DNA of 64,000 bases from the IMG/VR virus record IMGVR_UViG_3300021400_001327, positions 32,001-96,000 of that record; one strand, given 5' to 3'. This document shows positions 21,355-56,289 of this stretch, piece after piece. The notes under the pieces were generated by a model that saw only the letters and a program-made list of their open reading frames with translations, was not told the origin of the DNA and searched no databases. This DNA comes from a virus (lineage: Duplodnaviria > Caudoviricetes). Position 1 is the stretch's first letter. Every line of letters begins with the position of its first letter. A program made the translations under genes and the position numbers.

Positions 21355-21372
21355 GTTGCAACACCGCCCTTC

Positions 21373-22004: not shown

Positions 22005-22019
22005 GCTTCCCGCTACCTC

Positions 22020-22686: not shown

Positions 22687-22712
22687 TCACCTCCATAAAT
22701 ATCCTTAAAACT

Positions 22713-22811: not shown

Positions 22812-22815
22812 TTGC

Positions 22816-29695: not shown

Positions 29696-29704
29696 GAGGT
29701 ACCT

Positions 29705-30631
29705 ATGTATAAGCAGAATGATTACACCGAGAAGAAGTCCGCTGCTCAGGCCAAGCTCGACGCCTACATCGAGAAGGTCAACGCTGACAAGCCGCAGGCC
29801 AACGAAATCACCGGCGCGAAGGAAGCGCTCGACAAGGCCGTCGCCGATTACAACACGCTCGTCGTGTCCGACGCCTACGAGCGCCTGTTCCTGCTGACCG
29901 CCGACGACGCTGAGGTCGGCTCCCTGCCTGATCCAGCCGCACACCTGAAGGCCACTGACCCGCTGGGGCGTGCCTTCCGTGGCTATCGCTTCTCCGGCCT
30001 GATGAAGGCCAGCATAAAGCGCGACAAGCAGACCGACCGTGTAGACACAGGCAAGACGTCGCTGGTCTGTGTCGCCGACGATGACGCCGACGAGAAAAAG
30101 CAGGTCTACCACCTGCGCGACATCGCCGCGAAGTGGGACGAGCTCCAGACTGCCGCAGGCGTGACCCAGAAGGCCGAGCTCATGGCTTCGCCAATGTGGG
30201 GCTCGCTGGTCCAGAAGGTCCGGCGGCTGTTCATCGCTCGCTCGCTGTCGCTGGGCGGCTACGCCATCCCTTCCGGCGTGACCAATGACTATATCGTCTA
30301 CACCGCTGACGGGCAGGCCGTGGCTGTCGCTGACCTGACCGCTGAGCAAAAGAAGGCGCTCGACGACAAGGTCACCGTCAAGGCGCTCAAGGCCGAGCTT
30401 CAGGCGCTCGTTGACGCTGTCTACTTCGACGCGACTGGCCGCAAGAACGGCTCCAACAAGTACCGTGTCAACGAGAAGGACGTGCACTGGCTCGTGGACA
30501 ACGCTCATCGGTTTGATGAGCGCTCCCACAAGACCGTCCTGATGAGTGACGCGAAGGCGTACGAGTTGGCCTTCTGCATGGTCGCCCACATCGTGACCGG
30601 CGAGTCCTACAGCGCTCTTCTGGGGGAGTAA
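29705..30631 (+). CDS. Hypothetical protein, probably highly expressed
   Basis: GAGG RBS; very biased codon usage. Confidence 0.8.
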   Translation: MYKQNDYTEKKSAAQAKLDAYIEKVNADKPQANEITGAKEALDKAVADYNTLVVSDAYERLFLLTADDAEVGSLPDPAAHLKATDPLGRAFRGYRFSGLMKASIKRDKQTDRVDTGKTSLVCVADDDADEKKQVYHLRDIAAKWDELQTAAGVTQKAELMASPMWGSLVQKVRRLFIARSLSLGGYAIPSGVTNDYIVYTADGQAVAVADLTAEQKKALDDKVTVKALKAELQALVDAVYFDATGRKNGSNKYRVNEKDVHWLVDNAHRFDERSHKTVLMSDAKAYELAFCMVAHIVTGESYSALLGE

Positions 30632-30702
30632 TTCCCCCCTTTGCCCCGCATGGCTCAAGCCTCCACGCGGCGCGGGGTGGGTAACGCCGATTGAGTCAGA
30701 CC

Positions 30703-30731
30703 TTGTCAACTGAGCGAGAACGTGATATATT
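30703..30731 (+). promoter_or_regulatory. SigmaA-type promoter
   Basis: TTGTCA-17-TATATT with extended TG. Confidence 0.6.
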
Positions 30732-30740
30732 TATACAGGG

Positions 30741-30971
30741 GTGGTGATATTGGCAAAAGAAAAAGATCGGCACAAGAATCCGAACTATAAGAACGAGTAT
30801 GCCCGCGCAAACTATGAACGTGTTACGTTTATGTACAAACATGACCAACGTTATAAAGAGCGCATCAAAGCGCAGGCTGAATACGATGGTATGTCCATCA
30901 ACGCCTGGATTCTTCGCGCAATTGATACACAGCTTCGCCGCGAGTCCGGCGAGCTTACAGGAGAGGAGTGA
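30741..30971 (+). CDS. Ribbon-helix-helix (Arc/HicB-like) DNA-binding protein
   Basis: NYERV..KERIKAQAE..GMSINAWILRAI. Confidence 0.7.
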   Translation: MVILAKEKDRHKNPNYKNEYARANYERVTFMYKHDQRYKERIKAQAEYDGMSINAWILRAIDTQLRRESGELTGEE

Positions 30972-30977
30972 TACACC

Positions 30978-31670
30978 CTGAAGTTTCTTGATGACCTTGA
31001 CCCGCGACTGATAACCGACGAGCAACGACAACAACTCCGTGAACTCTATGAACGCGACCCGTACGCGTTCTACAACCTGTGGCGCGATCCCGCCCAAGCT
31101 CAAATCTGGGCAGAAGGCGAGAACTTCAAGACAGAGCCCGCCAACGACCTGTATCAGAAAATCGGCGCTTTGAGGCTCGCCGGTGCGCCCGAGCATGTTA
31201 TTGACTTCTGGAAAGACACACTTACGCACAAGGGCAGAGACGAAAGGAGTGATTTACTGCCACCAGCAACAAAACCTGTTCCAGAGAAGCTTAAGCAAAT
31301 CGACGAGCTTTGCGCGTATCTCGACGGTTTATTGAACTGGGTCGAAGACAATCGGCTCGAACTCGATGACAATGCCGACGAGCTTCCAGACGTTCTGCCA
31401 ATTGCTGGCAAGTGGGAGCGTTTGATGCGGCGAGCGACGACGGGCAAAGACGTGATTGAACATCACAACGGCGCCGTGCGTCACTACAAAGCGACTGATG
31501 ACGTTGTAGAGGCCAACATGGGCGTCGAGGTCGTAGAAGTGATATTAAGAGAGGGCGCAGACATCGAGCTCGATATCGAAGACTGGGACAACAACTACAT
31601 CAAGCCCGGAAGCTGCCGCATAGACAGCAACGGCAACATCCTGTTATACTTCTATCACTGTTACGAATGA
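30978..31670 (+). CDS. Hypothetical protein, probable CTG start
   Basis: Frame is open 64 codons upstream of the listed TTG; GAGGAG lies 9 nt before CTG. Confidence 0.6.
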   Translation: MKFLDDLDPRLITDEQRQQLRELYERDPYAFYNLWRDPAQAQIWAEGENFKTEPANDLYQKIGALRLAGAPEHVIDFWKDTLTHKGRDERSDLLPPATKPVPEKLKQIDELCAYLDGLLNWVEDNRLELDDNADELPDVLPIAGKWERLMRRATTGKDVIEHHNGAVRHYKATDDVVEANMGVEVVEVILREGADIELDIEDWDNNYIKPGSCRIDSNGNILLYFYHCYE

Positions 31671-31730
31671 AGCTGATATCACAAGCCTGTAAGTAAAACC
31701 GCATAACGACGCAATGAACCGACCACCAGC

Positions 31731-31753
31731 AACCGCCTACGGGCGGTTTTTTT
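31731..31753 (+). terminator. Intrinsic terminator
   Basis: AACCGCC-TACG-GGCGGTT followed by a T-run. Confidence 0.8.
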
Positions 31754-32200
31754 ATGCCCAAAAATCCTGCACGAGGGATTGATGAGCGAGCGTTTTTTTG
31801 CGACCACTGGTTAGTCGGAACCAGAAATGAAAACGGAATCAGAAAGGAGACCAAAAATGCAGACATTCATTATCAGCAAGAAGCAGTTCAAGCGCCTCAT
31901 GAAAATTATCAGCAAGGGACGCACCATCCAGCGCAAAGCTGAACGGAAAAACAAGAGGCTCGAACGCCTTTTGGCCGAGGTGTTCGGATGATGATTCCAA
32001 CATGGGTTTTCCTTGCCGTTCCTATGGTCATCGCGTACGGAATCGGAACCATAATTGATTCCGTAAAAGACCGCCGCGAGCGCCGGATGCTCCACTACAT
32101 CTTCGACGGTGACAGGCTTCAGGCGGAGCGCTGCAACAAAATCATTATGCGCCGCGAGCGCAAGTTTTATTGACAACCGGAACCAGAAAGGAGAAGCAAT

Positions 32201-32746
32201 ATGTTCGACGTCAAACACGGGCATCACCTGATTTGGACGAACCACGCACTCAACCTCGACGACTGGGCCCCCTTTCTTGAAGAGGAATATCCAGACGTAA
32301 CGGACGAGAGTGACAAGTGGAATATTATCTGCGAGCGGAATCTGGAATATCTGGACGATGAGCGCATGAACCTGAACATTAATCTCGGAATGCCGATCAT
32401 CTGCATAGCGGATCTGGAACTCTGGGACGGACGGAAAGATGGTTATAAAATCATCGGATCGGGAAATATTTCTGATTGTCTGTATGACAGTTGCGACTAC
32501 GACACATGGTACGTGGACGAGGTCGGAGATCTCTGCTGCGACGCCATACACCACGACGGAACCAACCACTATTTGTATAGGGTTTTCCGCGACGGAACCA
32601 CACCTGAACAGATGAGCAAACTGGAACAGAAAATCTACAACGGAATCGCAAAATGGCCTGATATCGCCAGAGTTACGACCAAGATCGGACCCACAATCGC
32701 GAAAGTATATGGGTGGGGATGGAACCGGAACCGGAAACAAAACTGA
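32201..32746 (+). CDS. Hypothetical protein
   Basis: GAAAGGAGA RBS; L.LWDGR and HHDGTN patterns seen in phage/ICE proteins. Confidence 0.75.
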   Translation: MFDVKHGHHLIWTNHALNLDDWAPFLEEEYPDVTDESDKWNIICERNLEYLDDERMNLNINLGMPIICIADLELWDGRKDGYKIIGSGNISDCLYDSCDYDTWYVDEVGDLCCDAIHHDGTNHYLYRVFRDGTTPEQMSKLEQKIYNGIAKWPDIARVTTKIGPTIAKVYGWGWNRNRKQN

Positions 32747-32768
32747 ATCTTGATTTTGTTAAACAATT

Positions 32769-32796
32769 AGCGGGGATGAAAACCACCCCGCTTTTT
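32769..32796 (+). terminator. Intrinsic terminator
   Basis: AGCGGGG/CCCCGCT stem followed by a T-run. Confidence 0.65.
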
Positions 32797-32813
32797 GTTT
32801 GGAAGGAGCAATC

Positions 32814-33551
32814 ATGTCATTCAAAATCGGAAAAATCTTCGACGCGCTCGGACACATCTTCAGAATCAACCAGACGGAACACAAAGGAAAAATGGAGTTC
32901 GTTCCGTCTATCAGTACTTCCTGCCGGTGCAACGAATTCTGTCAGGCACGCATGCGGAACGGCGAGAACGTCTGCGCGGAGTGCTTCGCGGACTCCCTTC
33001 TGGCGTTTCGCTGGTCGCTGGAAGAGGCGCTGGAACAGAATTCCAAACTGCTTTCCGAGCGGCTTCTGACGGAACAGGAAATCGATTCGATTGTCATCCG
33101 TTGGACGCCAAAAATGCTGGAAGGAAATCCGGGTATGTATACCCGCATCGAGAGCTTCGGCGATGTGCGGAACGTAATCCAGGCACGGAATTACATCCGC
33201 ATCATCAAACGGAACCAGAAATGCAACTTTGCCATCTGGAGCAAAAACTGGCGGCTGTGGTTCATCGCCTTCCAGATGGAAGGGAAGCCGGACAATTGCA
33301 CGTTCGTGTTGAGCTCGCTCAAATTGAACGTACAGGACCTGATTCCGCCCGAGATGGAACAGTATGTAGACCACGTTTTTACGGTCTACGATGCTGACTA
33401 CATCGCCGCCAACGGAATCGAAACCAACTGCGCGGCTGAGTCCTGCGCAAAGTGCGGACGTTGCTACAGGAAGAACAGGGCGGACCTGTATGTAAACGAG
33501 AAGCTCAGGAAGAAGGGCGGGAAAGCCCGCCGGATAGCCAAAGCCGCATAA
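32814..33551 (+). CDS. Gp88-like Cys-cluster (radical-SAM-like) protein
   Basis: C..C..CAECFA, RIESFGD, FAIWSKN, C...C..C..C. Confidence 0.6.
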   Translation: MSFKIGKIFDALGHIFRINQTEHKGKMEFVPSISTSCRCNEFCQARMRNGENVCAECFADSLLAFRWSLEEALEQNSKLLSERLLTEQEIDSIVIRWTPKMLEGNPGMYTRIESFGDVRNVIQARNYIRIIKRNQKCNFAIWSKNWRLWFIAFQMEGKPDNCTFVLSSLKLNVQDLIPPEMEQYVDHVFTVYDADYIAANGIETNCAAESCAKCGRCYRKNRADLYVNEKLRKKGGKARRIAKAA

Positions 33552-33710
33552 CGGCATCGGAGCCGAAATGAAATCCAATTCGGATTCCCCGACCGTGGTT
33601 CCCTGACTGAAAACCCACCCCATACGGTCAGCGGAGCCCGAAATGAATCTCGTTTTGGATTTCAGCGGCGGCTCTTGTGGACGAAAACCCACCCCGAAAG
33701 GAGACACACT

Positions 33711-35037
33711 ATGGAGAAACCCGTTGAATACATCGTCAGGGTTTACGACGGACCCGATACCTACGAGTATGAATACTCGAATCCAGAACACGCCAACGAA
33801 GCGCGGGACTGGGAGCGCGAACACGGCAACAGCGCCAGCCTCTTTGCCTACTACTGGGACGGCGTCAACCGTCGCGAAGAGTTTATCCGCTAATGGCGGA
33901 ACCAGAAAGGAGATTGAATCATGAGCAAGCAGTATTTCCCAATCACATCGGACCGGGATCAGACCATAAACTTCATGCGCGTTGACTTCGTCTACAACAA
34001 GGGCGGAATGAACGTCTGGACGTACAAGCGGGAGCCCCGTGGTTACTACCTGATGTTCACGCCGGTCCAGCGTGACGGAATCATGGAGGGCTTCACGGCC
34101 TTCACCGGCAAGAAGTACATCATCACTGAGGTCTCCAGGGCTTCCGCGAAAGCGGAACGGGAAGCAAAAGCTGAAGCTGACCAGTTCATCGAAGACATGC
34201 TGGAGCACGTTTGTGAACAGCTTGGCTGTCATCTGGTCAGAGAGGAGCAGGAATGAAAATCAGGTTTTATCAGGTGACGATGAATCGTCACTATGACTAT
34301 CCGGCTGCTGTGCCTGTGACGGAATCGGAAACCATTGTTAATCGCATCGGTCTATCACCCACCGTCAAGAATGTGAAGCGCTTCATCGAGCGTCACACAG
34401 ACCTTATGATCGACACCCGCTGGATGAGCGTCGCGGAGCAAATCCACGACGGTATGTCATGCGGGTACTTTTCAATCAACCTTGTGACCGGAACAGAATT
34501 TGAAACCTGTTCCATCGGATTTATGGAGGTGTAATCATGAAACGCTCGTTTGAATGGCATGGAAATAAATACTTCCTGCTCGGAACCGGATCGGACGGAG
34601 ATTATTATTGGCTCCAGGAGGCTTCGTTTGATTGTGGCTGGTACTGGAGTATCGGCTACATAGAAACATTCACGAATAATAAAGCTCCGTGGAGGAGCGC
34701 AGATATAGCCAGTCACAGCCATTTTAAGTACATGATGGAACGCCAAAAAAACGACTTTGGCGGACCAATGAATTGGTATGACGCGTTCCGTGCCGTTTTT
34801 CATGAGACGCCGCTGACGGATTCAGAAGTATGGACCGTGATAGAAATCATGAGGAGCCTGTACACGGCGCGTGATTACTCGGATATGCTTTACCATGGCG
34901 GATCGTATTACACCAGAAACCCTGTCGCAGAAACCATAAAGAACGCAGCGGAATACGGGCGGATCAACAAAGTGGTCATCCCTGCCTTGCTCGAAAACCT
35001 GTACAAAATCTTGGACGGAACAGGAAAGGAGAACTAA
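33711..35037 (+). other. Four small hypothetical genes (33711-33893, 33921-34256, 34253-34534, 34537-35037)
   Basis: Each has a strong RBS; tightly packed. Confidence 0.7.
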
Positions 35038-35039
35038 CC

Positions 35040-35420
35040 ATGACCGAAGTCTATCGCCAGACCGGCGCCTATGCCCGCGAACACAATGAGCTCGACCAGT
35101 ACCGCGAATCGTATCGGCTCAACCAGGAATGCAAGCGCGACATCGAGAAGGGCATCGCCGCCGCCTTCGACGGAATGCGCCTCGCTAACGGACCGGAGCA
35201 GGAAGTGCTCACTAAGTACGGCGCGGACCGTGTGTCCTACGTCCTCGCCAACACGCTTCAGGAACTGCGCTACGATGGCCGCTTCAGCCGGAGCAATAAA
35301 GAGTGGGCGAACGGAATCACAATTACACCCAGCGAAAACAACTGCTATCTGATCGTGAACACCCATCCCGCCGTGCTGGATGGATTCGTAAATAAGGTCC
35401 GAAAGATTATCGGACAGTGA
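35040..35420 (+). CDS. DUF3849-like protein
   Basis: YARE..EL..YR.S, YG..RV..VLANT, DGRFS..NK.WA, HP..LDGF. Confidence 0.75.
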   Translation: MTEVYRQTGAYAREHNELDQYRESYRLNQECKRDIEKGIAAAFDGMRLANGPEQEVLTKYGADRVSYVLANTLQELRYDGRFSRSNKEWANGITITPSENNCYLIVNTHPAVLDGFVNKVRKIIGQ

Positions 35421-36120
35421 AAGGAGAACGGAATGGATAATCAATCGCATTTCAAATGGGAACTGACCCGCGATGAACTGGACACCATCTGGTGGGCGCT
35501 GACCGAGCGCGAAACATCCATGCGGAAGAAAGCCGAGCGTGTACACAACGGCGAGAAACTGGGTTGCACGGAAGCAGAATATCACAGCATGGCCAACAAA
35601 TGTTTAGACTTGTACGGCCAAATCAATCGTATGCGGAACCGCTACTGGTAAGAAAGGAGACAAAAACCATGACTATTAAGCGCGACATCCTCGGAACCGT
35701 AATCGAAATCAAATTATCTGAGCAGGAAGTGCTCGCCGCCCACCGTGCCTATCTGGAACAGGAGCTCGGTAAGATGAGCGCTCCTCTCCCCCAGCCCACA
35801 AAGTGTGAGATGACTCAGAAGCCACAGCCGGACTGCAATCCAAAGCTTGTTGTCGCTGTGGCCGTAGGGCAGGAACCTGAGTATATACAGAAACTGTGGG
35901 AGTGCAGGGCAAAACTCGAAGAGGCACCGTACACATCAAAACGTTGTTTGGTGCTGGATGCTTACGTTCCGTATATGGCAGCAGCGCATAAAGCAGGGCT
36001 GTCTGGAAATAAGATTGCGCAAATACTCGGCACTTGCCCGTTAACAGTTCTGAAACGTCTTGATTCTATTCGTCGAGGGAATACTTTCGCCGCCTGACGG
36101 ACTCAGAAAGGAGAGAGCGT

Positions 36121-36486
36121 ATGGGTTACTACACAAGTTATAACATGGACGTAAACAACGTTAAGAGTAAAGCGGAACACGATGCGCTTTATGATGCGCT
36201 TAGAAAGAAGAACATTATTGGATATGCCTTCTATGGCGGAGACTGGGATAAGCATAACTCATCCTCGTTCTGGTGCAGCGAATGCGTTAAGTGGTACGAC
36301 CACGATGAAGACATGCTTGAGATCAGCAAACAGTTCCCGGAAATGACGTTCAAACTGATCGGAACAGGCGATGATGACGATGATCGCTGGTACACGCTGT
36401 ATCGTAATGGCGAATTTGAAACGGTAAAGGCCGTACTGACCTGGCCGGAACCAAAGCGGATTAAGTGGAAGGAGTTATGGAAATGA
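36121..36486 (+). CDS. Hypothetical protein (paralogue of 38280-38651)
   Basis: Shared YT.Y.M.V, IGY.F and S..FP..TFKL...G...D.W. Confidence 0.7.
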   Translation: MGYYTSYNMDVNNVKSKAEHDALYDALRKKNIIGYAFYGGDWDKHNSSSFWCSECVKWYDHDEDMLEISKQFPEMTFKLIGTGDDDDDRWYTLYRNGEFETVKAVLTWPEPKRIKWKELWK

Positions 36487-37053
36487 AAATCGTTTATCAG
36501 GTGACCGTAACGGACGAAGATGTCAGACAGAACGTAATGGACGTTATTGATGAAATGGAAGGTGAAATCGAGTTTCACAACGACGATGAGAAGTCCAACT
36601 TTATCACAGACTGCACTGAGAACATCTGCGATAAATACGAAAGCGAATATTGGAACCACGAATTGTCGTACATGGACTATGAAGAAGAAGTCCTGGATTT
36701 GGCAAGGGAATATGGAATCAGGAAGGACTGACGATGAGAGCGAAGGATTACCTGAAGCTCAATCGGACGGCAGCGGTCGAGCTCCGGGCGCTTGATGAGT
36801 ATTTACTGAGGCTGTGCGGAACAGCATTTGACTGGAGATTCGTCAACATGTACGACATCCCTCTTCTGGCCGGAACGATAAACGGACACGAGTTCCTCGT
36901 GAACCTCAGCCTGCCGATGAAGAAGGTGAAATACTGGATCGATGGAGCCGTAAAGGAGAGTGATGACTATCACGGCTTCAGCGAAGAAGAGCTCGCAATC
37001 GAAATCTCGAACTGGTCCGGCAGGAATTTCTTGTATGAAATCGAATCTCTTAT

Positions 37054-37742
37054 TTGACATCGGAGCCCAAAACGAATTAGGATTATGAAGGGAGTGGAGT
37101 AAATGAGAGCGTCGGACTGGGGAATACTAATCTTACTCGTTATCCTCTTTGGCCAATACTACTACAGGATGAACAAAGCACAGAAGGATCTGTTTAAGGA
37201 ACAGGCGATAAAGTATCAATTGCTCCCGAAGTACGGTGTGTTTGATCAGCACACAATAAAGAATTATCTGAGCAAATTTGCAGAGCCAGGAGTCAATGTG
37301 TACTTCGGCAGCCTGCAAAATGTCGCGCAGAGTGTTCCGATGATGCGGCTCGGATCGATTGACACTGCGATGAGAAAGTACTATAGCTGGTACGGGTTCC
37401 TGTATATCGCAATGTACATCATGTATTATCAGGATTCTATGCCGCAAATCGCCAGACGGATGGCGCACGAGCTTGAGAAGTACTGGCCGGAAGGAATGAC
37501 ATGGCGAAAAGCCACGAAGTACTTAACGGAATTAAATCAACAAGAGATTTATGAACTCGGAAACAAAGCTACCTACTATGCAAAACTATACATGACGCTT
37601 CCGCCGGAAATCCAAGCGAAACTCGATGACAAAAAACAGCGAAAGAAGTTCCTGAAAGAAGAAGGAATAATCTAACGGAACCACAATTGAATATGGATCG
37701 TTACGAAGTATGAGGACTGTCTGGAACGGCAGTCCTCTTTAA
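37054..37742 (+). other. Moron-like unit: promoter, membrane-anchored ORF 37103-37675, terminator
   Basis: TTGACA-18-TAGGAT; N-terminal TM helix; GAGGACTG/CAGTCCTC stem plus TTT. Confidence 0.6.
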
Positions 37743-38279
37743 TTACGAAAGGAGACAGACGGAATGGTAACAAACACATTCGGGCTGAAGATGGACGGCC
37801 TCGCTCAGGCCGCAGCCGCCACCGAAGATTATGGTTGGCGCGGACTCAGATACAACGAACTCTTCTACAATATGCGGACCGGTAAGGTGTGGCTGGTCAA
37901 GCAGACCAGTCTGAACCAGGCCGCCTGTACTAAATATGATAACCCCAGCATCGTGAAGATTGGCAACCTGACGGACCAGTATACAGAACAGAAACTGGCG
38001 GTAAGGATTTACCGTGGGCTCATCAAACAGGGGAGGATCAGAAAATCATGAAAAAGATGTCTGAGGTCTATGCGGAACTGGTCGCCGCGATGCCGTCGGA
38101 AGAAATCGACCATCATGAGTCGGACCTGTATGTGAAAGCCACGCCGGTCAGTAGTCGGATCATCAAAGAGGCTGATATCCCCCACGGAATGGTGGAACGG
38201 TTTGTAGACCAAATTACAGGAACCGTCTGGTACGACCTTGCGTTTGCTTACATGCCCTTCTGGGCGGAAAGGATTTAAT

Positions 38280-38651
38280 ATGGCAGATTACACTCGTTAC
38301 TCTATGGAAGTCGACGGAATCAAAACCGATGAAGAACTGAAGGCGTTTGAGGACAAGCTCAAAGAGCTCGACCTTATCGGATACGTCTTCGATGAAGGTC
38401 CTTGGAAAGCAAAGAATGGTATTTACCAGTGGGGACATTACGATGAGCAGAACTGGACGACATGTGAGGAAACGATGATGCTTCTCAGCAGGACATTTCC
38501 GACCTTCACCTTTAAGCTCATGTGCTACGGTGAGGGGATTGACGACAACTGGGTGCTGTATATGAAGAACAACGTTTGGCAGTGGGTTAAAGCGGAATGC
38601 GTTGCCCCTGCTCCCGACTGGGCGGAATGGCGCGGCGACTGGAAAATGTGA
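38280..38651 (+). CDS. Hypothetical protein (paralogue of 36121-36486)
   Basis: Same shared motifs as its paralogue. Confidence 0.7.
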   Translation: MADYTRYSMEVDGIKTDEELKAFEDKLKELDLIGYVFDEGPWKAKNGIYQWGHYDEQNWTTCEETMMLLSRTFPTFTFKLMCYGEGIDDNWVLYMKNNVWQWVKAECVAPAPDWAEWRGDWKM

Positions 38652-38664
38652 AGGGAGAACCGGA

Positions 38665-38994
38665 ATGACATTTGAAGTGAAAACCCGCTGGGCTGTAACG
38701 CCTGACTGTTACCTGAGTGTTGGCCAATATGAACGCGGCAAGCACATCGCCATCAGCATCTGGTCTGAATCGGAAGGACCGTTCGCTGACCTGACCGTGA
38801 ACCTCGACAAGGTCAAGCGGTTCCCGAGGAACTACGCTTTCGTGGACGTGAACAATTTTCCAGAGGCTGAAGCCATGATCAAACAATTGGGCATTGGAAC
38901 ACGAATTGAAAACGAATTCGGTTTCAGCGGATACTGCGCTTACCCGCTGTATCAGTTCGATGAAGAAGCAATTAAGAAATGGATGGAGGGATGA
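38665..38994 (+). CDS. DUF4313-like protein
   Basis: PFADLTVNL, AFVD.NN, SGYC.YPLY.FD. Confidence 0.75.
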   Translation: MTFEVKTRWAVTPDCYLSVGQYERGKHIAISIWSESEGPFADLTVNLDKVKRFPRNYAFVDVNNFPEAEAMIKQLGIGTRIENEFGFSGYCAYPLYQFDEEAIKKWMEG

Positions 38995-41900
38995 AAATGA
39001 CTATCGGAGATTTGGCGGACGTATATCAGGGACACATGGTGGTTATGGGAGCGGACAAGATAACGCTCGCAGACACGATCCGTGACCACGGGGATTTGCC
39101 GTTCGACCTTATCAATGTGCGGATTGAAGGACTCTTGCCGCTGAAATATCCAAGCGGAGAGTTTTATATTGAAATCACTGTCGACCTGTAACGAAAGGAG
39201 ATAAGAAGTATGGAACTGGAAGTCAAAACAAAGCTCGGAACCCTGATGGCCTCTGCGGACGGAGACGTCAGTTATCCGGGAATCATGATATATCTTGTGC
39301 GTGACGACGGAATGAGAATACTGTATGCCTGGGTCGAAGTCGACGAGACAGAAGCGGAACCAGTGCTGAAGGTGCATGCGTTCAACAGCTACGACGACGA
39401 GCCAGAGTTTGATTTGGACCAGACAGCGGACGACATCAATAATTATGGAGAGGAGACGGAATAATGAAGAGGTATCGGATTGAGTTTAACGGCGTGATTG
39501 AGATTGAAGCCGAGGACGAGGACGAAGCGTGGTCGACCTTTGGATGTATGTCCGACGAAGAAGTACGCGGGAACATCAGCTACATCGATGTAGAAGAGGT
39601 TGAGTAAGGAAGGAGCGATAATCGTGAAAAAGATTCAGTTTGGACTGACGGAAGAGCAGATGCTGATCACGAAGGGATGGACGGTTGTGCCGTCTGACAG
39701 CAACGACCCCACGCAGCCCGTGCTGTTCATCCCGCCGCTTGAGTCGGACGAGCGTCCGTTCATTAAAATGTCCGATGGAACCAGAATCAACGTCACAGCC
39801 AATATGTGCGACGCCATCTACCGCTACGTGGATCGGGAGTCTGCCGCCGATGATTTGAATTACTTCACGAACGATAAGTATGAGGGCGGCGAGTTCATTG
39901 AGCATAAGGACGAGATTGAGGAATGCAAGGAAGATATCATCGACAACTACATTGAGCGCCGGAACGGAGCGGAATCGTGGTGGGATGATATGCGCGACAG
40001 CATCAAGTATTCACTGGGATTGTATTAAGGAAGGAGCGATAAACATGAAACCGTTTAAGGAACTCAGCCGTAGAGAGCGCATGAACGAACTGCTGGTGCA
40101 TGTAAACCAGATCATGCATCGTATCTATCCAGACCGTGAACTCTGGGTGGACTACGTTAAGCCGGACGAGGAAAGCATCAAGACCTTCAGCGACTGGACT
40201 CAGAAGAGACTTGGAATTCTGACTGGAGATGAATACCTAATCGTCAGCGAAGGGCCCCGCATGGAGAGTGTCCTGTACGCCGTGAATATTTCGGCGGACT
40301 CAGAACTCACGGCGATGGACGAACTGTTTCATCTGCTGAGTTATAAGTTTTAAGGAGCGTTGTGATGGATGGTAACGGATACGCCATCTTTTCATATGAA
40401 AGATGGCGTGATGGTATGCAGGATAGGCCGGAGCCCGAAACAATGAGTCTTGAAGACCTGGTCTCCGAACTGATTAAATGGTTGCCGAAGGATGAGCACC
40501 GCATATGGAGCTATGACGGAGACGAAATTCTGTGTGAGACTGAACAGCTTGCTGAAGACATCGCCGACTTCATAGATGCGCTCTATGGCACACCTGTAGC
40601 AAACACAGGATACTACGCCCCAGAAGAGGATGCGCGGAACGGCGAAACAGACCAGCAGACCGGCTGGTATTATGTGACGATAGATTAAGGCGGAAGGAGA
40701 AAATGATATGACGTTATTTGGTGGATATGAGTGCAAGACGACTTTCTGGAACGACTTCGAGATTGCAGAACGATTCGGAAAAGATGCTCTGATGGACACC
40801 TTCAACAGGGCGTTCGGTGAGTGGAAGAACAACTACATCTACCTGACAGAATTGGTCATGGTGATGAACCACAAGCTGTGGTACTGGTACGAGAAAAAGC
40901 ACGATCACCCATATGTGGAACTGTACAACGTTTTCTACGATAAGAGCTCATGCTATGCGGAAGAGAATCTGAAAGGCAATGAGCTCAGCTACTACTACAG
41001 GACGACAGACTGAAAGGAGAATCGTTATGAAGTATCGCGAATACAAGAAAGAATACATCGGCGAATCCGACAGCGCTGTACTGGTGGTGCTGTCTCAGAC
41101 ATATGACGGGGCGCTCGAAGCGGCGCCGCTGAAGTTTGGTCAGGACCACGCATACAGCGCATATATCGTGGACCAGCACTGCGACCCGCCCCAGCTTGAG
41201 GGATGGAACCTTGAGATCATCAGGATTGGCGCTGGTTGGTTCAGAATCTACGACGACCACGAGGGAATCGTGATGCAGAAGGATTTTGATAACGTGCTCC
41301 GCATTTACCGGCGCGGCGAGATGGGCTGCATCATCCAGGCGTATTGAGAGGAGTTAAACATGAAGTATATCGACTATATGGAACAGCATCCGAAAGAGAA
41401 CATGAGTTGGTGCAGGCCGTTCCTGTCAGATGACGGACACGCGCTTGCTCTCAACGAGGGCGACCCAACCTGCCGCTTCCCAGACGGGGCAATAGGCGGG
41501 CAGGAACTGATGAAGCGGTTTGCAATGGAGGTCAATCCATCATATGATTTATACAGCGGATGGGATGACATTCATATAGCGCTCGAGTGCATGCACGAAG
41601 TCGGCTGCGTGGACTGTCCGTTTGCCGACATGTGCGAAGTGATGAACGATGAACTGGAGGGATGAGGAATGAATAAGGAGCGCAGGAAGCAGTTACAGGA
41701 AGTGATCAACAAGATTTCCGAAGCGCACGACCTGCTCGACGAGATATTGAGTGACGAGCAGAACGCCTTCGACAATATGCCGGAGGGGCTCCAGTCTTCG
41801 GAACGCGGTGAGACTATGGAAGAAGGCATCTACAACATGGAAGAGGCGCGTGATAACCTCGAAGACATTACCAGCACACTCGAAGAAGTAATGGGATAGG

Positions 41901-42595
41901 AGAGATGAGCGATGACGGAAGACACTTATATCAAGTGTATTGACGGTAAATGGTATGCCTTTGCGGCAGACACAAAGGATTGGAAAGCATATTCGATTGG
42001 TAGCGACAATCCGAGCAGAGGCAGAGACGGCACGCGTTGGGTGGCGCCACTGAACGACAGTGGAATCAAATATGTGGCTATCTGGTCGACGTCCAGAAGC
42101 GGCGCTTATCAGAAAGCCCGTCGGAATGGCAATTACTGCGGCGAAATGAAATGGTAAGGAGACAACACCATGACGAAGCTCACGAAGGAAGAGGCCAAGA
42201 AGGAACTGTTCGATGCGCTGAACATTGACCATCCAATCATCTTTCATGTCTACGAGACCGACATTACGGACGGATATGTGGTGGGATCGGGGATCATCGG
42301 AGCGCCCGATGACCTGTACGACACAGACCGCTTCTACGATATCGGATATGATAACCACGACGTGGAAGAAATCCATGTCGACAGCATCACGACCTACATG
42401 ATTGGTGATGGTGGGGATAGCGAACATGCTGACTCCAGCGATTGCGCTGTCATAGAGGATATGCTGAACAACCGACGGACAGCTGGCGGACTGATGGAGT
42501 TCCTTGAACACGACGCCGACGTCATCTCTGATTGTGGCGCTGGGTATGTGGACAACCCGTGCTATGAGCCTGAAGACGACGATTACGACATATAA
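38991..42595 (+). other. Run of ~12 small, mostly acidic hypothetical genes
   Basis: Co-oriented ORFs of 45-140 aa, each with an AGGAG-type RBS. Confidence 0.7.
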
Positions 42596-42652
42596 TAGGA
42601 AGAAACCCATGCATGCTTTATCCAATGGATAGAAACGGAAGGAGATTTGATT

Positions 42653-43216
42653 ATGAAGATAGTATTCTCAGCGGAAACATTCAAGAGAATGATGAAGGTT
42701 TGTTCGTCGGCAGTCATCAAGAAGGACGATGGCCGAAGAATGCTCCAGTACATCTGCATTGATGTTGGTTACGACGGAACATTTACTGCGTGTGGTGTGA
42801 ACGGGCATGAGCTTGCCAAGTATAGAGGGGCATGTGAGGCTGACGGAGAGGGACGTGTCTTCATTAAGCCGGTCAAGACGCCAAAGGACGCGACCAGGGT
42901 CGTGGTCGACGGTACAGATGGAACAAGGACCATTGTTGAGTATCAGATGTACAGCCGCGCCATTTACACAGAGGTACAGGTGGTCGATAAAGGCGAGTTT
43001 ATCGCTTACGACAATGTGATTCCTAAACCAGAGGAGCGAGATGTTCTTTCGATTTCGGTCGATCCGAAAGCCATGATTGAGTTAATGTCTGGCCTGAAGG
43101 ACTTTAAGTCTATAAAGATGTCCTTCAGAAGACCGATCGACAGCATCCTGATTACACCGAATCATTACACGGAAGGCGAAGTCACTTGCGTCCTGCTACC
43201 AATGCGTGTCGCTTGA
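42653..43216 (+). CDS. Truncated beta sliding-clamp-like protein
   Basis: R.ML.YI.I, A...NGH.LA, F..Y..VIP, C-terminal VLLPMR as in DnaN. Confidence 0.65.
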   Translation: MKIVFSAETFKRMMKVCSSAVIKKDDGRRMLQYICIDVGYDGTFTACGVNGHELAKYRGACEADGEGRVFIKPVKTPKDATRVVVDGTDGTRTIVEYQMYSRAIYTEVQVVDKGEFIAYDNVIPKPEERDVLSISVDPKAMIELMSGLKDFKSIKMSFRRPIDSILITPNHYTEGEVTCVLLPMRVA

Positions 43217-43250
43217 TGGCGGCAGACCATGATTGATACGTCTTAGCGAT

Positions 43251-43753
43251 TTGACAGGCCGAAATAGTATATGTATACTGTGTATCGAAAGGAGGTCGGT
43301 TTGAAATGGAAGTTAAAGACCCCGGAAATCTGCTGATACCATTTGATAAGGTTAAAGAACTGGTCCATGACAAACTTGTTAAAACACTCGACTTAAGGGC
43401 AGATGTTAACAGTGATGTTCTCAGAGCATTGGAATTGTTCTTTCTCGAACTGGAGATGCAGCTCTATGTGGATGACATCTGGAACCCAGACTGGCGGCTC
43501 GATTACCTGGAGGGCGTCATCGATTTTGTAGAAGAAGCGAAATTGGTCACAAAAAAGCAGGCACAGTGGCTGCGCCAATACCATGACTGGATCGTCGGGA
43601 ACGATGACATGTTTGGCGACGTGGAGGATTACAGGAAGGCACTCGGAATCAAAACCCCCATTCGATATCCGGAAAAAGAAGAAGACGCAGAATAACAGAA
43701 TATGAAAGGAGCCGCATAGCGGACGCACGGTGAAAACTGTGCGTGTTTTTTTT
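43251..43753 (+). other. Moron-like unit: promoter, ORF 43306-43695, terminator
   Basis: TTGACA-17-TATACT; AAAGGAGG; GCACGG/CTGTGC stem plus T-run. Confidence 0.7.
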
Positions 43754-43756
43754 ATT

Positions 43757-44275
43757 ATGACGATAACGATGATTGTGGATGGCGTGGAACATAATGTCAA
43801 CCTGAGCGAAGAGCAGGTGCAGCAACTGCTGGATACAGCGGGACGTCAGCCATATGCCCGTGTCGGGTACGGCGAGACGTATTACTATCTCGATAATCTT
43901 GGCGACGTCAAAACGACGGACGACATTGAATCAAGTGCAGACGACAGGTTGTATGATTTTGGCAATTACTGGGCGAACAAGAAAACATGCGAGGATGATG
44001 CCAGAGCGGACATCTTGCTCAGACAGCTCCGTAGGTTCGCTATGGAGAACGGCGGTTACTTCGACAAAGACACAGACGACCTGATGTTGTCATGGTGTTT
44101 GGAACCGGCGGACAAGCCATCATTGAAAGAGGTGCGCATCTATAAGCGATACACGAGTCGCGTCGGAATGGTGGGCTTCGCTTCATGGGATGCTGCGCGA
44201 GACGCTTTAACGCAGTTCCGCGACGAAATCATCTGGTATCTGTACACCTACCTGCCGAGCAAGGAGATGAAATAA
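43757..44275 (+). CDS. Hypothetical protein
   Basis: GETYYYL..D.RLY..GNY pattern common in Bacillota phages. Confidence 0.65.
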   Translation: MTITMIVDGVEHNVNLSEEQVQQLLDTAGRQPYARVGYGETYYYLDNLGDVKTTDDIESSADDRLYDFGNYWANKKTCEDDARADILLRQLRRFAMENGGYFDKDTDDLMLSWCLEPADKPSLKEVRIYKRYTSRVGMVGFASWDAARDALTQFRDEIIWYLYTYLPSKEMK

Positions 44276-44647
44276 TGGCGCTGATCAAGTATTCATGTGA
44301 AGTTTGTCACCGGCTCTGGGATACAGAGGAGCAGGCGGACGCCTGTGAAGCGACGCACAAAGGAGCGACCGAAATTCTGGAATGCCGTTACAAAAAGAAA
44401 GCGCAGCCGGAACTGTATCCCTCCAGCCTGCTGATGAAAATGGCGGACGGAAAACAAATCGTCTACTACATGGGACGGGCAGAGAAGCAGCCCACTACAC
44501 CGCTCAAATATGAGTCTGTCCCCTACCCCACTGACCCGACTGGCGGACAGTAAAGGAATAGTAAATCGGATTAAGCGCCGACGGCGAGCGGCTATCCGAT
44601 GCGGATTAAGAACCGCCAGTGAGCGGGCATCCGCGTGAAAGGAATAT

Positions 44648-45356
44648 TTGAAGTTAGGGAGTTTGTTCTCCGGGTCCGGCGGCTTTGAGTTCGCCGGACT
44701 TTTTTGTGGCATCACGCCAAGTTGGAATTCCGAGATTTTGGGCTTCCCTCGTTCTGTAACGGATCGCTGGTTTCCAGACACAAAGCAGTTAGGCGACGTG
44801 ACGAAGATTAAAGGGGGTGATGTTGAAGCGGTTGACCTGATTACATTTGGGTCGCCGTGTTAGCCAGGACCTCTCTATCGCCGGTAACCGTGCCGGAATC
44901 CATGATGGAACCAGAAGCTCACTGTTCTTTGAAGCGATCAGAATCATAAAGGAGATGCGCGATGCCACAAACAACCGGTATCCAAGGTTTGCAGTCTGGG
45001 AAAACGTTAGCGGCGCCTTTAGCTCCCACAATGGAGCAGACTTCCAAGCCGTCCTCGAAGCGTTCTGTCAGGTCGCAGGAACCGACATTCATGTACCTTT
45101 CCCTGAAGTCAACAAAGGAAGGTGGGCAAAAGCCGGAACCATCGTGGGAGATGGTTTCTCGATTGCCTGGCGTCTCTACAACGCCGTCGGTTGGGGCGTT
45201 CCCCAGCGTCGAGAGAGAGTCTTCCTTATCGCAGATTTTGGAAGTGAACGTGCCGGAGAAATACTATTTGACAGCGCGTGCGAGTCTTGGGATACTTCGG
45301 CGAGCATGGAAACGTGGAAAGAATTTGCCGGAAGTGTTAAACAACGCACTTGTTGA
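44648..45356 (+). pseudogene. C5 DNA methyltransferase motifs I-VIII, broken by a 4-nt insertion at PC^Q
   Basis: LFSGSGG, GSPC-TAG-C-QDLS.AG, WENV, PQRRER; deleting 4 nt fuses 44648-44863 to 44865-45356. Confidence 0.8.
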
Positions 45357-46332
45357 GTGCATAAAAATTAGTGGTGATTGCTTTGGGCAGAAAGAAATTA
45401 GAGACGCCGGAAAAATATTGCGAGAATTGTGGGAAGAAGTTGGAGAGAAGACCTTTAAAGAATGGATACTTAGAGCCATTATTTCACTTCAACAAGAGAA
45501 AATACTGTTCAATACAGTGTTGCAGTGCTATGCAATCGAGGGAAAAGCTCCTGTGCCCACCAAAGACAGCAAAGACGAGCAGACAGAGGGCGAGAAAGAT
45601 TGTAGAGCAGGGAACGTGTGTGATGTGCGGGGCGCAAACACGGACAGAAGTGCACCATATAGATCACAATCCTATGAACAATACGCCAGAAAATTTGATG
45701 AGATTGTGTTCCAAGTGTCATCACGCCCAGCACAAAAACGACCGACAGAAACCTTTATGTGTTGTTTGCGGGGAGCCGCAGAAGGGGCACCATTTATGCT
45801 CAAAACACTGGCAAGCATGGAGAAAGAGCTTAAAAAGAGGATGGGATACAGAATACACATTGATGATAAAACAATGTTTGATAGATGCGGGGCTGTGAGC
45901 GTCTGGGATGCCCGTGGGAATGGCGACGGAGAGACTTCTCCTACCATCACAGGCGACCACAACAACAGGATCACCGACTACACCGCCGTCATTGTGGAAT
46001 CGAAACCGAGCACCCACTACTTCTCTATGCAGCGCTTCGATGAATTCAAGGAGAGCGATGCGGCGTCCACCCTCAAACAGCGGGACTACAAAGACGTGAC
46101 AGATATCGTGGTCGAGGAACGAGAACCAATACAGGAACGCAAGTACATCGTCCGGCGGCTGACGCCCACGGAAAGCCTGAGTCTTAATGGTTTGCCGAAA
46201 TGGTGGTGCGATGATGTGAAAGGCCGTTCGGATACAGCGGTATATAAGCTGTCCGGAAACGCAATAGCGATTCCGTGTGCTGTAGATGTGTTGGAAAAAA
46301 TCGAACGGGCTTACAGGAGAGATTTGAGATGA
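44962..46332 (+). CDS. Methyltransferase second polypeptide (alternative-frame beta-like segment plus motifs IX-X)
   Basis: AAGGAG 7 nt before ATG; SSLSQILE..KYYL..GILRRA..RGK.LP; RRLTP.E; YK..GNA. Confidence 0.7.
   Translation: MPQTTGIQGLQSGKTLAAPLAPTMEQTSKPSSKRSVRSQEPTFMYLSLKSTKEGGQKPEPSWEMVSRLPGVSTTPSVGAFPSVERESSLSQILEVNVPEKYYLTARASLGILRRAWKRGKNLPEVLNNALVECIKISGDCFGQKEIRDAGKILRELWEEVGEKTFKEWILRAIISLQQEKILFNTVLQCYAIEGKAPVPTKDSKDEQTEGEKDCRAGNVCDVRGANTDRSAPYRSQSYEQYARKFDEIVFQVSSRPAQKRPTETFMCCLRGAAEGAPFMLKTLASMEKELKKRMGYRIHIDDKTMFDRCGAVSVWDARGNGDGETSPTITGDHNNRITDYTAVIVESKPSTHYFSMQRFDEFKESDAASTLKQRDYKDVTDIVVEEREPIQERKYIVRRLTPTESLSLNGLPKWWCDDVKGRSDTAVYKLSGNAIAIPCAVDVLEKIERAYRRDLR
45371..45898 (+). 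CDS. HNH endonuclease nested in a different frame of the MTase ORF
   Basis: CVMCG..EVHHID.N..NN..ENL..LC..CH...H plus extra Zn fingers; likely start TTG 45383. Confidence 0.85.
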   Translation: MVIALGRKKLETPEKYCENCGKKLERRPLKNGYLEPLFHFNKRKYCSIQCCSAMQSREKLLCPPKTAKTSRQRARKIVEQGTCVMCGAQTRTEVHHIDHNPMNNTPENLMRLCSKCHHAQHKNDRQKPLCVVCGEPQKGHHLCSKHWQAWRKSLKRGWDTEYTLMIKQCLIDAGL

Positions 46333-50470: not shown

Positions 50471-50473
50471 ATT

Positions 50474-56287: not shown

Positions 56288-56289
56288 TT

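What the first reader, a model, noticed from the sequence alone, without database searches (positions are those of the whole stretch)
31815..44800. Abrupt, strand-specific saturation of the early region with CGGA
Hand counts: CGGA occurs once in 29701-31800 (2.1 kb), then 23 times in 31801-32760 (960 bp). About 4 are expected at 1/256, and the reverse complement TCCG occurs only twice there. In that stretch 23 of 26 CGG trinucleotides are followed by A. Density stays high (about 19 in 34.5-35.4 kb, about 13 in 39.0-39.5 kb) and fades by ~45 kb. It appears in all three codon phases (GAC GGA, ACG GAA, CGG AA.) and between genes, so it is not simple codon bias. It begins right after the strong terminator at 31731-31753. 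Inference: a polar DNA or RNA signal written over ~40 unrelated genes. Candidates are a coating/silencing or translocation protein, a GGA-binding RNA regulator (CsrA-type proteins bind GGA), an antitermination factor, or a modification target.
Basis: partly seen in the sequence, partly recalled or inferred. Interest (0 to 1): 0.85.

Follow-up and report, generated by a model that had tools for sequence, protein, structure and literature searches.

The report
Early-operon CGGAA tag in gut phages
The first 8-30 kb of the early operon of this uncultured 107-kb SPbeta-like phage, and of five relatives with almost no early genes in common, is saturated on the sense strand with CGGA(A), a conserved nucleic-acid signal whose reader is unknown.

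Summary
CGGA rises from 1.4/kb to 16.5/kb at window 31,801, about 60 nt after a conserved terminator. It stays there to ~39.5 kb and then runs at 7/kb to ~61.5 kb; TCCG stays low throughout.

CGGA is the most over-represented of 256 tetramers under synonymous-codon shuffles (z 6-7). It occurs in all three codon phases and in strictly non-ORF spacers (47 vs 19 expected, pooled over five genomes).

CGGA ranks 1-3 of 256 in the early genes of five relatives (G001, G002, G003, G005, G007; GC 45-57%). These share almost no early genes or nucleotide similarity with this phage. A sixth relative, G004 (GC 43%), uses TGGAA instead, so the family is YGGAA. SPbeta and three other relatives lack the signal.

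The regulatory genes just upstream, and the late genes in four of six genomes, avoid the word.

The boundaries follow expression class, so I favour a sense-transcript tag read by a conserved trans-acting factor, probably host-encoded (about 0.5). No reader was found. CsrA-style loop presentation is not supported, and Chi-like or primase readings fit poorly. I found no report of it in the papers searched.

The parts
31731..31753 (+). Conserved intrinsic terminator (GC stem plus T-run) ending the upstream regulatory block; the tag domain begins about 60 nt downstream
   Evidence: Terminator scan. The same terminator and flank are conserved in G001 and G002 directly before their onset. No sigma-A-like promoter was found between it and the first early gene in any genome.
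31807..31824 (+). Small hairpin (6-bp stem, 6-nt loop) carrying the first CGGA (31816-31819), upstream of the first early gene
   Evidence: Read from the sequence. It is conserved, with a loop change, in G001.
31816..39500 (+). High-density CGGA(A) domain, 16.5 sites/kb, about 22 small early genes plus their spacers
   Evidence: Changepoints. Counts, phases and shuffles. Sites are evenly spread, CV 0.83, with no periodicity.
39501..61500 (+). Intermediate-density continuation, 7.0 sites/kb, through the remaining early/middle genes to the replication module (ParB-like, ERF, PD-(D/E)XK nuclease, primase-helicase, first DNA-polymerase ORF)
   Evidence: Changepoints. Against a codon-usage null, 41-48 kb has z 2.6 and 48-64 kb is neutral. 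Annotation.
29701..31800 (+). Upstream same-strand regulatory genes that avoid the tag (1 CGGA in 2.1 kb)
   Evidence: 1 observed vs 10.5 expected, z -3.6. Pooled with the G001 and G002 homologous blocks: 8 vs 27.3, second most depleted of 256 words. G002 has 0 sites in 2.25 kb before its onset.
32178..32193 (+). Example of the stereotyped intergenic linker CGGAACCAGAAAGGAG (tag plus extended Shine-Dalgarno) before the ATG at 32201; a second copy lies at 33897-33912
   Evidence: The same linker recurs in G001 and G002.
31857..31991 (+). First early gene: a 44-aa very basic peptide, conserved only in G001
   Evidence: Translation and tblastn.
1..25000 (-). Late (structural) arm whose coding strand is depleted in CGGA
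   Evidence: 233 vs 327 expected under synonymous shuffle, z -6.5, rank 249/256. The same holds in G001, G005 and G007 but not in G002 or G003. Other GGA-containing words are depleted too.

Best explanation
CGGA(A), more generally YGGAA, is a sense-strand tag that labels the immediate-early transcription unit of a clade of SPbeta-like temperate phages of gut and rumen Firmicutes. I think it is read on the nascent or mature early RNA, or possibly on the non-template strand of the transcription bubble. About one site every 60 nt, densest near the promoter, would give early messages a fate different from lysogeny and late messages.

My preferred sub-mechanism (about 0.2) is a built-in timer: sites for endonucleolytic processing or decay that make immediate-early mRNAs short-lived, as T4 RegB does with GGAG. 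The next options are a protein coat on untranslated nascent RNA that keeps RNA polymerase reading through terminators or Rho (about 0.15), and titration of a GGA-binding regulator (about 0.1).

Shown: the signal is real, strand-specific, independent of coding, conserved across phages that do not share early genes, bounded by expression class, and avoided in neighbouring gene classes.
For: 1. Nucleic-acid level. The word is rank 1 of 256 under synonymous shuffles, sits in all three phases, and is 2.5-fold enriched in non-ORF spacers. GGA is used for 58% of Gly codons after NNC vs 42% elsewhere in early genes (odds ratio 1.9), and for 20-23% in the 48-64 kb genes.

2. Conserved process, not inherited sequence. 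CGGA ranks 1-3 of 256 in the early genes of G000, G001, G002, G003, G005 and G007 (z 3.6-7.3). G000 shares one early ORF with G005/G007 and has essentially no early-region nucleotide similarity to G002 or G005. G004 (GC 43%) uses TGGA(A) in the same place. SPbeta, G008, G009 and G010 are negative. In a genome-wide scan, CGGA or GGAA at the early domain is the single strongest regional tetramer anomaly in five genomes.

3. Boundaries follow expression class. Onset is within about 60 nt of a conserved terminator. Density decays with distance from the operon start in all genomes.

4. Avoidance elsewhere. The upstream regulatory genes have 8 vs 27 expected. Late genes have z -6.6, -4.9, -3.9 and -3.2 in four genomes. 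In late genes CGGA and GGAA are more depleted than the SD core AGGA.

5. Selection. Aligned CGGA sites are conserved at 45-49% between G000 and G001, against 34% for the average 4-mer, with turnover of individual sites. Two 9-nt in-frame indels carrying GGAACCAGA lie in different reading frames.
Against: No reader was identified. The phages encode no CsrA. No RegB homologue was found, but that search has no positive control. No RNA-binding or RNase domain is recognisable among 53 early or regulatory proteins.

Predicted local RNA structure gives CGGA no preference for unpaired positions: rank 156 of 236.

There are no reversed genes inside any domain, so RNA-level and DNA-level readings could not be separated directly. 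Promoters and transcript ends are predictions only. No sigma-A-like promoter was found in front of the operon.

The depletion in late genes is partly a general avoidance of GGA-containing, SD-like words, and it is absent in G002 and G003. The host is unknown.
Confidence: 0.5

Rival explanations
1. It is a DNA-level polar signal read by a translocating or end-processing machine. Candidates are a Chi-like attenuator of AddAB/RecBCD on the first-injected or pac-cut end, a translocase-orienting word, or recognition sites of the phage's T7-type primase-helicase (the complementary 5'-TTCCG-3' would template a pppGGAA primer).
For: The strand specificity is strict (140 vs 26). In SPbeta the pac site lies in the divergent region and packaging runs into the late arm (bioRxiv 10.1101/2021.11.22.469490). 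If the geometry is the same here, the start of the early arm is near the last-packaged, first-injected end. ERF is shared by G001, G002, G005 and G007 and absent from G003 and the negatives; the PD-(D/E)XK nuclease and primase-helicase are shared by those four but also give weaker or partial matches in G003 and in the negative G009. There is a weak excess of site pairs 11 bp apart.
Against: The 2-6 kb between the presumed end and the operon is depleted of the word, which is the opposite of what end protection needs. Onset and decay follow the operon, not the genome or the replication geometry. The other arm is depleted rather than mirror-symmetric. For an enzyme entering from the left end, the recognised strand would carry TTCCG, unlike the G-rich Chi sequences I know of (from memory). 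On the sense strand a primer would have to start with a pyrimidine, and priming sites would be nearly absent from the late arm. G005/G007 domains end about 10 kb before the primase gene.
Confidence: 0.15
2. It has no dedicated reader. It would be a by-product of composition: purine-rich early genes with a shifted codon or codon-pair usage, avoidance of Shine-Dalgarno-like flanks around GGA, hitch-hiking of a repeated intergenic linker, or a context-dependent mutational bias in a heavily transcribed region.
For: GGA and GAA are the top trinucleotides, and much of the 4-mer excess follows from them (Markov z only 2.4). C before and A after GGA are the flanks that cannot extend pairing with the anti-SD. 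GGAG and GGGA remain depleted in early genes. The linker CGGAACCAGAAAGGAG recurs. The commonest alternative states are single transitions, CAGA and TGGA.
Against: CGGA is rank 1 of 256 after synonymous shuffling that keeps the region's own codon usage. The enrichment is equal in non-coding spacers under dinucleotide shuffles. The linker explains at most about 10% of sites, and the logo has no information beyond CGGA+A. TGGAA and the other YGGAH words are much weaker than CGGAA, so SD avoidance alone does not give the pattern. The same word is selected in phages of 45-57% GC with unrelated genes, is absent from four related phages, and is avoided right next door. Aligned sites are conserved above average.
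Confidence: 0.12
3. It is a CsrA/Rsm-type sponge. Abundant early mRNAs would carry many GGA sites that titrate the host's GGA-binding translational regulator.
For: The invariant core is GGA, at 36/kb in the domain. Density is highest where transcript abundance should be highest. Other gene classes avoid GGA words. From memory, ACGGAU is a known high-affinity RsmE context.
Against: The sites are not preferentially in predicted loops or unpaired stretches. There is no A enrichment at the position expected for A-N-GGA, and the following base is A or C rather than U. C is strongly preferred over A or U before GGA. The carriers are translated mRNAs, which a repressor would harm. The phages encode no CsrA, and the host's CsrA status is unknown.
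Confidence: 0.1
4. It is a target of a nucleic-acid modification, for example adenine methylation within GGAA on DNA or RNA, or sites of a one-strand-methylating Type III-like system kept in one orientation to escape cleavage.
For: The word is asymmetric with extreme orientation bias. From memory, one-orientation sites make T7 refractory to EcoP15I. The phage carries a C5 methyltransferase at 44962-46332. GATC, CTAG and GGCC are strongly avoided genome-wide, so restriction pressure is real.
Against: Orientation bias explains asymmetry, not a 3-fold excess confined to one operon. The phage methyltransferase is a C5-cytosine type. No adenine methyltransferase was noticed among the proteins scanned.
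Confidence: 0.05

Closest known systems
T4 RegB endoribonuclease and its GGAG targets in early mRNAs
   Same: A tetranucleotide containing GGA is tied to the early temporal class of a phage. It lies next to or in Shine-Dalgarno regions of early cistrons and is under-used in later messages. It offers a plausible logic, timed inactivation of early mRNAs.
   Different: The word here is CGGA(A)/YGGAA, not GGAG. It is spread through coding sequence in all phases at about 1 per 60 nt, not mainly in intergenic SDs. No RegB homologue was found (no positive control). No cleavage is shown. The host is Firmicutes-like and the phage SPbeta-like.
CsrB/RsmZ-type sponge RNAs for CsrA/RsmA
   Same: Many GGA motifs sit on an abundant transcript, with avoidance elsewhere.
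   Different: The motifs are on translated polycistronic mRNA. They are not presented in predicted loops, and the flanks differ from A(N)GGA.
Chi, KOPS/SRS and other oriented DNA words
   Same: It is a short, strictly oriented, over-represented word.
   Different: It is confined to one operon with a gradient from its start. It is absent next to the presumed DNA end and depleted on the other arm. It is only 4-5 nt long.
Strand bias of Type III restriction sites in T7 (CAGCAG)
   Same: Nearly all copies are in one orientation.
   Different: In T7, as I recall, the sites are not enriched and are genome-wide. Here there is a 3-fold local excess.
Bacillus phage SPbeta (genome architecture)
   Same: There is a divergent late arm and early arm. 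The terminase is about 36% identical. Both have a C5 methyltransferase in the early arm and many small early genes.
   Different: SPbeta itself shows no CGGA or other tetramer saturation of its early operon.

Membership tests
RegB-type early-mRNA endonuclease system | Phage-encoded RegB endoribonuclease (Pfam PF10715) | tested here: inconclusive
   No match in G000, G001, G002, G004 or G005. The family rang in none of the control genomes either, so absence is not demonstrated.
RegB-type early-mRNA endonuclease system | Target tetranucleotide GGAG concentrated in intergenic/SD regions of early genes | tested here: not met
   The enriched word is CGGA(A). GGAG is depleted in early gene bodies (z -2.8). 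Sites are spread through ORFs, with only a modest peak at -25 to -11.
RegB-type early-mRNA endonuclease system | Site-specific cleavage of early transcripts | not testable with these tools
   This needs 5'-end mapping or RNA-seq of infected or induced cells.
CsrA/Rsm sponge RNA | Multiple GGA motifs on one transcript | tested here: met
   GGA runs at 30-45 per kb in 32-41 kb, against about 20 per kb on other coding strands.
CsrA/Rsm sponge RNA | GGA presented in hairpin loops or unpaired stretches | tested here: not met
   The local-folding unpaired probability of CGGA is 0.10 (rank 156 of 236), the same as composition-matched words.
CsrA/Rsm sponge RNA | A(N)GGA-type flanks (consensus recalled from memory) | tested here: not met
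   A is not enriched before the C. C is preferred directly before GGA and A or C after it.
CsrA/Rsm sponge RNA | A cognate CsrA protein present | tested here: inconclusive
   None is encoded by five of the phages. The host is unknown.
Chi-like recombination/nuclease-attenuation sites | Oriented word placed so that an enzyme entering at the DNA end meets it early, and distributed along the replicon | tested here: not met
   The word is depleted in the 2-6 kb between the presumed pac region and the operon. It is restricted to one operon, and the other arm is depleted. The pac position is inferred from SPbeta only.
Chi-like recombination/nuclease-attenuation sites | Over-representation and replication-oriented skew in the host chromosome | not testable with these tools
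   The host is not identified. The only host flank seen (guaA-glmS next to provirus G007) shows ordinary CGGA density.
Codon usage / codon-pair bias | Excess disappears when synonymous codons are shuffled, and is absent from non-coding DNA | tested here: not met
   z is 6.0-7.3 after shuffling. The excess is present in all phases and in non-ORF spacers.

The most novel reading that the evidence does not exclude
A clade of SPbeta-like phages of gut and rumen Firmicutes writes a 5-nt sense-strand label (YGGAA; C in GC-richer genomes, T/U in an AT-richer one) about every 60 nt across whatever genes occupy the immediate-early operon, and keeps it out of lysogeny and late genes. A conserved cellular factor would read this label on the RNA to give immediate-early messages a distinct fate, either timed decay or processing, or protection of RNA polymerase from termination. 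That would be an operon-wide, sequence-coded temporal-class marker, a kind I did not find described for any phage in the papers searched.
Probability: 0.4. Interest if true: 0.85.

Novelty: categorically new. Interest (0 to 1): 0.74.

Why it matters
If a short word distributed over a whole operon sets the fate of early phage messages, that is a new layer of temporal control. It is also a new way to recognise early regions in uncultured phage genomes directly from sequence.

The data give a clean natural experiment. The same word is maintained over non-homologous gene sets in six genomes, with a C-to-T variant in an AT-richer relative. It is avoided in adjacent gene classes. That makes the question "who reads it?" directly testable by pull-down, recoding and transcript mapping once a host or surrogate is available.

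It also warns that codon usage in phage early genes can be dominated by a non-coding constraint.

Tried and rejected
- Periodicity or helical phasing: none apart from small excesses at 6 and 11 nt.
- A longer degenerate motif: the logo carries no information beyond CGGA plus A at +4.
- RNA loop presentation: not seen.
- A complementary UUCCR-rich phage RNA as reader: no such window found.
- Reversed genes inside the domains, to separate RNA from DNA readings: none exist.
- Phage-encoded CsrA or RegB: not found.
- Domain scan of 53 early or regulatory proteins: only DUFs, GP88, an RNA ligase, methyltransferases, RusA-like, Arc-like and Lar-like hits; no RNA-binding protein or RNase.
- Phylogenetic profiling for a reader: genes shared only by carriers are ERF and structural genes, a PhoH-like ATPase and ClpP (the PD-(D/E)XK nuclease and primase-helicase also match G003 or G009); none is convincing.
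- The small basic first-gene peptide as a universal reader: it is conserved only in G001.
- The conserved upstream 166/233-aa protein: only 6 homologues, all unnamed, and the AlphaFold model is unusable at pLDDT 42. The 308-aa protein has no Atlas neighbour.
- Host identification: terminase relatives sit in MAGs binned as Prevotella/Bacteroidales. However, the provirus G007 flank guaA is closer to Bacilli (58%) than to those MAGs (44-49%), and every gene has a strong GAAAGGAG-type SD. So the host is Firmicutes-like but unnamed.
- Scanning IMG/VR for the 16-nt linker: 14 hits, mostly compatible with chance.
- Literature searches for CGGA, early-region oligonucleotide bias, and SPbeta or YonO: nothing relevant.

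Full report
**What the window is.** The window is bases 32001-96000 of a 107,314-bp IMG/VR virus record with a 107-bp end overlap.
- Genes run on the minus strand from about 2 to 58 kb of the genome. This is the structural arm, with terminase at window 11966-13795 and portal at 10389-11951.
- Genes run on the plus strand from window ~29.7 kb onward. They include many small genes with strong GAAAGGAG-type ribosome-binding sites, a C5 methyltransferase, a ParB-like protein, ERF, a PD-(D/E)XK nuclease, a T7-type primase-helicase and a split DNA polymerase.
- A tyrosine-recombinase-like gene sits in the divergent region.
- The terminase is 35-36% identical to SPbeta-group Bacillus phages. The closest GenBank record is an uncultured human-faecal phage at 37-41%.
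I used it as context but did not verify it.

**The observation.**
- Against the rest of the phage's coding strand, CGGA is the most enriched 4-mer in 31.8-41 kb (141 vs 46). Its extensions are CGGAA, CGGAAC/T and CGGAACCA.
- A maximal-order Markov model shows that much of this comes from GGA (334 vs 233) and GAA.
- Sites lie in all three codon phases (24, 48 and 51) and between genes, at 15.5 vs 14 per kb.
- The synonymous-codon shuffle gives 88+-5.8 vs 123 (z 6.0). Whole-codon permutation gives 60+-6.7 (z 9.3). The 48-64 kb genes show nothing (z -0.8).
- With all 256 tetramers tested the same way, CGGA is rank 1 in early genes.
- Sites are evenly spread (CV 0.83), with no 3-nt or helical periodicity. 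Pooled over genomes there are only small excesses at spacings of 6 and 11 nt.
- Poisson changepoints put the onset at 31,801, a plateau of 16.5/kb to 39.5 kb, then 7.0/kb to 61.5 kb, then 2.0/kb. The finding's right-hand limit of 44.8 kb is therefore too early.

**Refining the word.** The sequence logo around 780 sites in three genomes has no information outside CGGA except A (47%) at the next position.
- Within gene bodies of G000-G002, CGGAA has z +13.6 and CGGAC +4.8.
- TGGAA (+2.5) and AGGAA (+2.2) are weak, and GGGAN and GGAG are depleted.
- GGA supplies 58% of Gly codons after a C-ending codon against 42% otherwise in early genes. It supplies only 20-23% in the 48-64 kb genes.

**Relatives.** A terminase search of IMG/VR gave 61 loci, and I fetched eleven complete or near-complete relatives.

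| Genome | Terminase identity | GC | Domain |
|---|---|---|---|
| G001 | 88% | 53% | CGGA, 22.9 to ~47 kb |
| G002 | 65-66% | 57% | reverse strand, 78.3 down to ~57 kb |
| G005, G007 | 45-46% (human gut; G007 is a provirus) | 45-46% | CGGA, 8-10 kb long |
| G003 | 46% | 45% | GGAA first, CGGA second or third |
| G004 | 46% | 43% | TGGA(A) and GGAA |

- Each domain has an abrupt onset at the start of the purine-rich early arm.
- Under synonymous shuffling, CGGA is rank 1-3 of 256 in the early genes of G000, G001, G002, G003, G005 and G007 (z 3.6-7.3).
- In a genome-wide scan of 6-kb windows, CGGA or GGAA at the early domain is the strongest regional tetramer anomaly in G000, G001, G002, G003 and G005. 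Genomes without the signal, and also G004 and G007, give AT-rich or CG-rich words as their top anomaly.
- SPbeta, G008, G009 and G010 are negative.
- This is not inherited sequence. G000 and G001 early regions are a mosaic with only patches of 65-76% identity. G002 shares 155 nt of the plateau, and G005 shares nothing there.
- At protein level G000 shares one early ORF with G005/G007.
- Pooled non-ORF spacers of five genomes hold 47 CGGA in 2.7 kb, against 19+-4 under dinucleotide shuffles, with 2 TCCG.
- Between G000 and G001, aligned CGGA sites are conserved at 45-49% against 34% for average 4-mers. Losses are mostly single transitions.
- Two 9-nt indels carrying GGAACCAGA sit in different reading frames.

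**Avoidance elsewhere.**
- With the same proteins recoded using non-early codon usage, the late arm has 233 vs 319 CGGA (z -6.3). The three regulatory genes upstream have 1 vs 10.5 (z -3.6). The right-end genes have 27 vs 47 (z -3.1). Early genes have 134 vs 61.5 (z +11.3).
- Late-gene depletion recurs in G001, G005 and G007 but not in G002 or G003.
- It is partly a general avoidance of GGA words, although CGGA (-7.3) and GGAA (-6.1) exceed AGGA (-4.1).
- The upstream regulatory blocks of G000-G002 pooled have 8 vs 27.3, second most depleted of 256 words.
- G002 has no site at all in 2.25 kb of 55% GC before its onset.

**Anatomy at the onset.**
- In G000, G001 and G002 the last regulatory gene is followed by the same intrinsic terminator and flank. 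The first tag follows about 60 nt later, in a small conserved hairpin.
- No sigma-A-like promoter lies between them. The operon may be entered by terminator read-through; this is an inference.
- Intergenic spacers are stereotyped. Clade 1 has a stop codon, then CGGAACCAGAAAGGAG, then about 7 nt, then ATG, or TGA-CGGAAGGAG. Clade 2 has a GC-rich hairpin ending in CCGGA, then gaaCGGAGG, then about 8 nt, then ATG.
- A metagene over 169 genes shows roughly uniform density in gene bodies. There is a modest peak at -25 to -11 and a dip around the start codon.

**Mechanism.** The signal is strand-specific, independent of coding, conserved as a process, and bounded by gene class. It decays from the operon start and is avoided next door, particularly in the message that ends at the terminator guarding the lytic operon.
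- These features fit a reading of the sense transcript or the non-template strand better than a replicon-level DNA signal.
- A gradient proportional to expected transcript abundance is what selection on an RNA-borne function would give.
- The same core is kept in phages whose shared proteins are only 38-46% identical, and immediate-early RNA exists before any phage protein is made. I therefore favour a conserved host factor. This is inference.
- I give about 0.5 to an RNA-level tag read in trans. Within it I give about 0.2 to a decay or processing timer (RegB-like logic), about 0.15 to a nascent-RNA coat that sustains read-through, and about 0.1 to titration of a GGA binder.

**Evidence against the specific rivals.**
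- CsrA-type presentation is not seen, and the flanks are wrong.
- Chi-like protection is contradicted by depletion of the word nearest the presumed end. The pac position is inferred from SPbeta via the Kohm et al. preprint.
- Primase sites on the sense strand would need pyrimidine-initiated primers. On the antisense strand they would leave the late arm nearly unprimed.
- A pure composition or SD-avoidance by-product does not survive the shuffles, the spacers or the negative relatives.

**Reader search.** No phage CsrA or RegB was found. No RNA-binding or RNase domain appeared among 53 proteins. No complementary RNA was found. The first-gene basic peptide is clade-restricted. The upstream conserved protein has six unnamed homologues and an unusable model. 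The host is Firmicutes-like but unnamed.

**Limits.** Gene calls are my own ORF-plus-SD heuristic. Promoters, terminators and RNA folding are predictions. The pac site and RNA-polymerase assignments are by analogy. The carriers form at most three clades, so the phylogenetic profile of candidate readers is weak. No experiment or transcript data was available. Literature searches found no description of this pattern.

Noticed in passing
window 29587-29653 (+) and 30641-30700 (+): Two sub-threshold self-cleaving-ribozyme matches flank the 308-aa ORF 29705-30631. One is Twister-sister (28.5 bits, gathering score 34, E 0.028). The other is HDV-like (37.4 bits, gathering score 50, E 0.053). The first overlaps the 'ornate RNA' noted by earlier readers.
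   Followed up: no
window 31731-31860; G001 ~22960-23090; G002 reverse strand ~34615-34720: A conserved terminator plus flank sits between the regulatory block and the early operon. No sigma-A-like promoter lies after it in any of the three genomes. This suggests entry into the lytic operon by regulated read-through.
   Followed up: partly
window 31857-31991 (+): The first early gene encodes a 44-aa peptide with 14 Lys/Arg, resembling an arginine-rich motif. It is conserved only in G001.
   Followed up: partly
whole genome, all gene classes: GATC, CTAG and GGCC are among the most depleted tetramers under synonymous shuffling. In late genes GATC has z -8.6, CTAG is 4 vs 58, and GGCC has z -7.4. 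This is classic restriction-site avoidance.
   Followed up: no
window 31170-31670 (+): This ORF (166 aa, TTG start) is about 65 residues shorter at the N-terminus than its six metagenomic homologues (229-238 aa). About 200 nt of ORF-free DNA lies upstream. It may be truncated, frameshifted or mis-started.
   Followed up: partly
G000 vs G001 alignment, window ~31620 and ~32137: Two 9-nt in-frame indels consist of GGAACCAGA-like sequence. They lie in different reading frames, as if the short word itself is gained or lost as a unit.
   Followed up: no
G005 61.4-64 kb and G007 76.4-78 kb (loci L083, L099): The early intergenic regions carry a repeated GC-rich hairpin without a U-tract, ending in CCGGA. 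The next gene's CGGAGG ribosome-binding site follows it. This also explains the local CGCG/GCGC excess.
   Followed up: no
G007 (L096 6335-9723; L101 12461-14149): Provirus G007 keeps host flank genes guaA and glmS at one end and a large serine recombinase at the other. The guaA product is 58% identical to Bacilli and 44-49% identical to the Bacteroidales MAGs that hold related terminases. Those MAG bin assignments therefore probably do not indicate the host.
   Followed up: partly
window 53555-54151 (+): An RNA-ligase-family protein lies at the edge of the replication module. One member of the scanned set matches PHROG 14301 at E 1e-54, and this ORF has a weak Pfam RLIG1 hit.
   Followed up: no
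window 59534-63547 (+): The DNA polymerase is in two ORFs (59534-60733 and 61586/61811-63547), separated by a 196-aa ORF (60859-61449) that has relatives in G001 and SPbeta.
   Followed up: no
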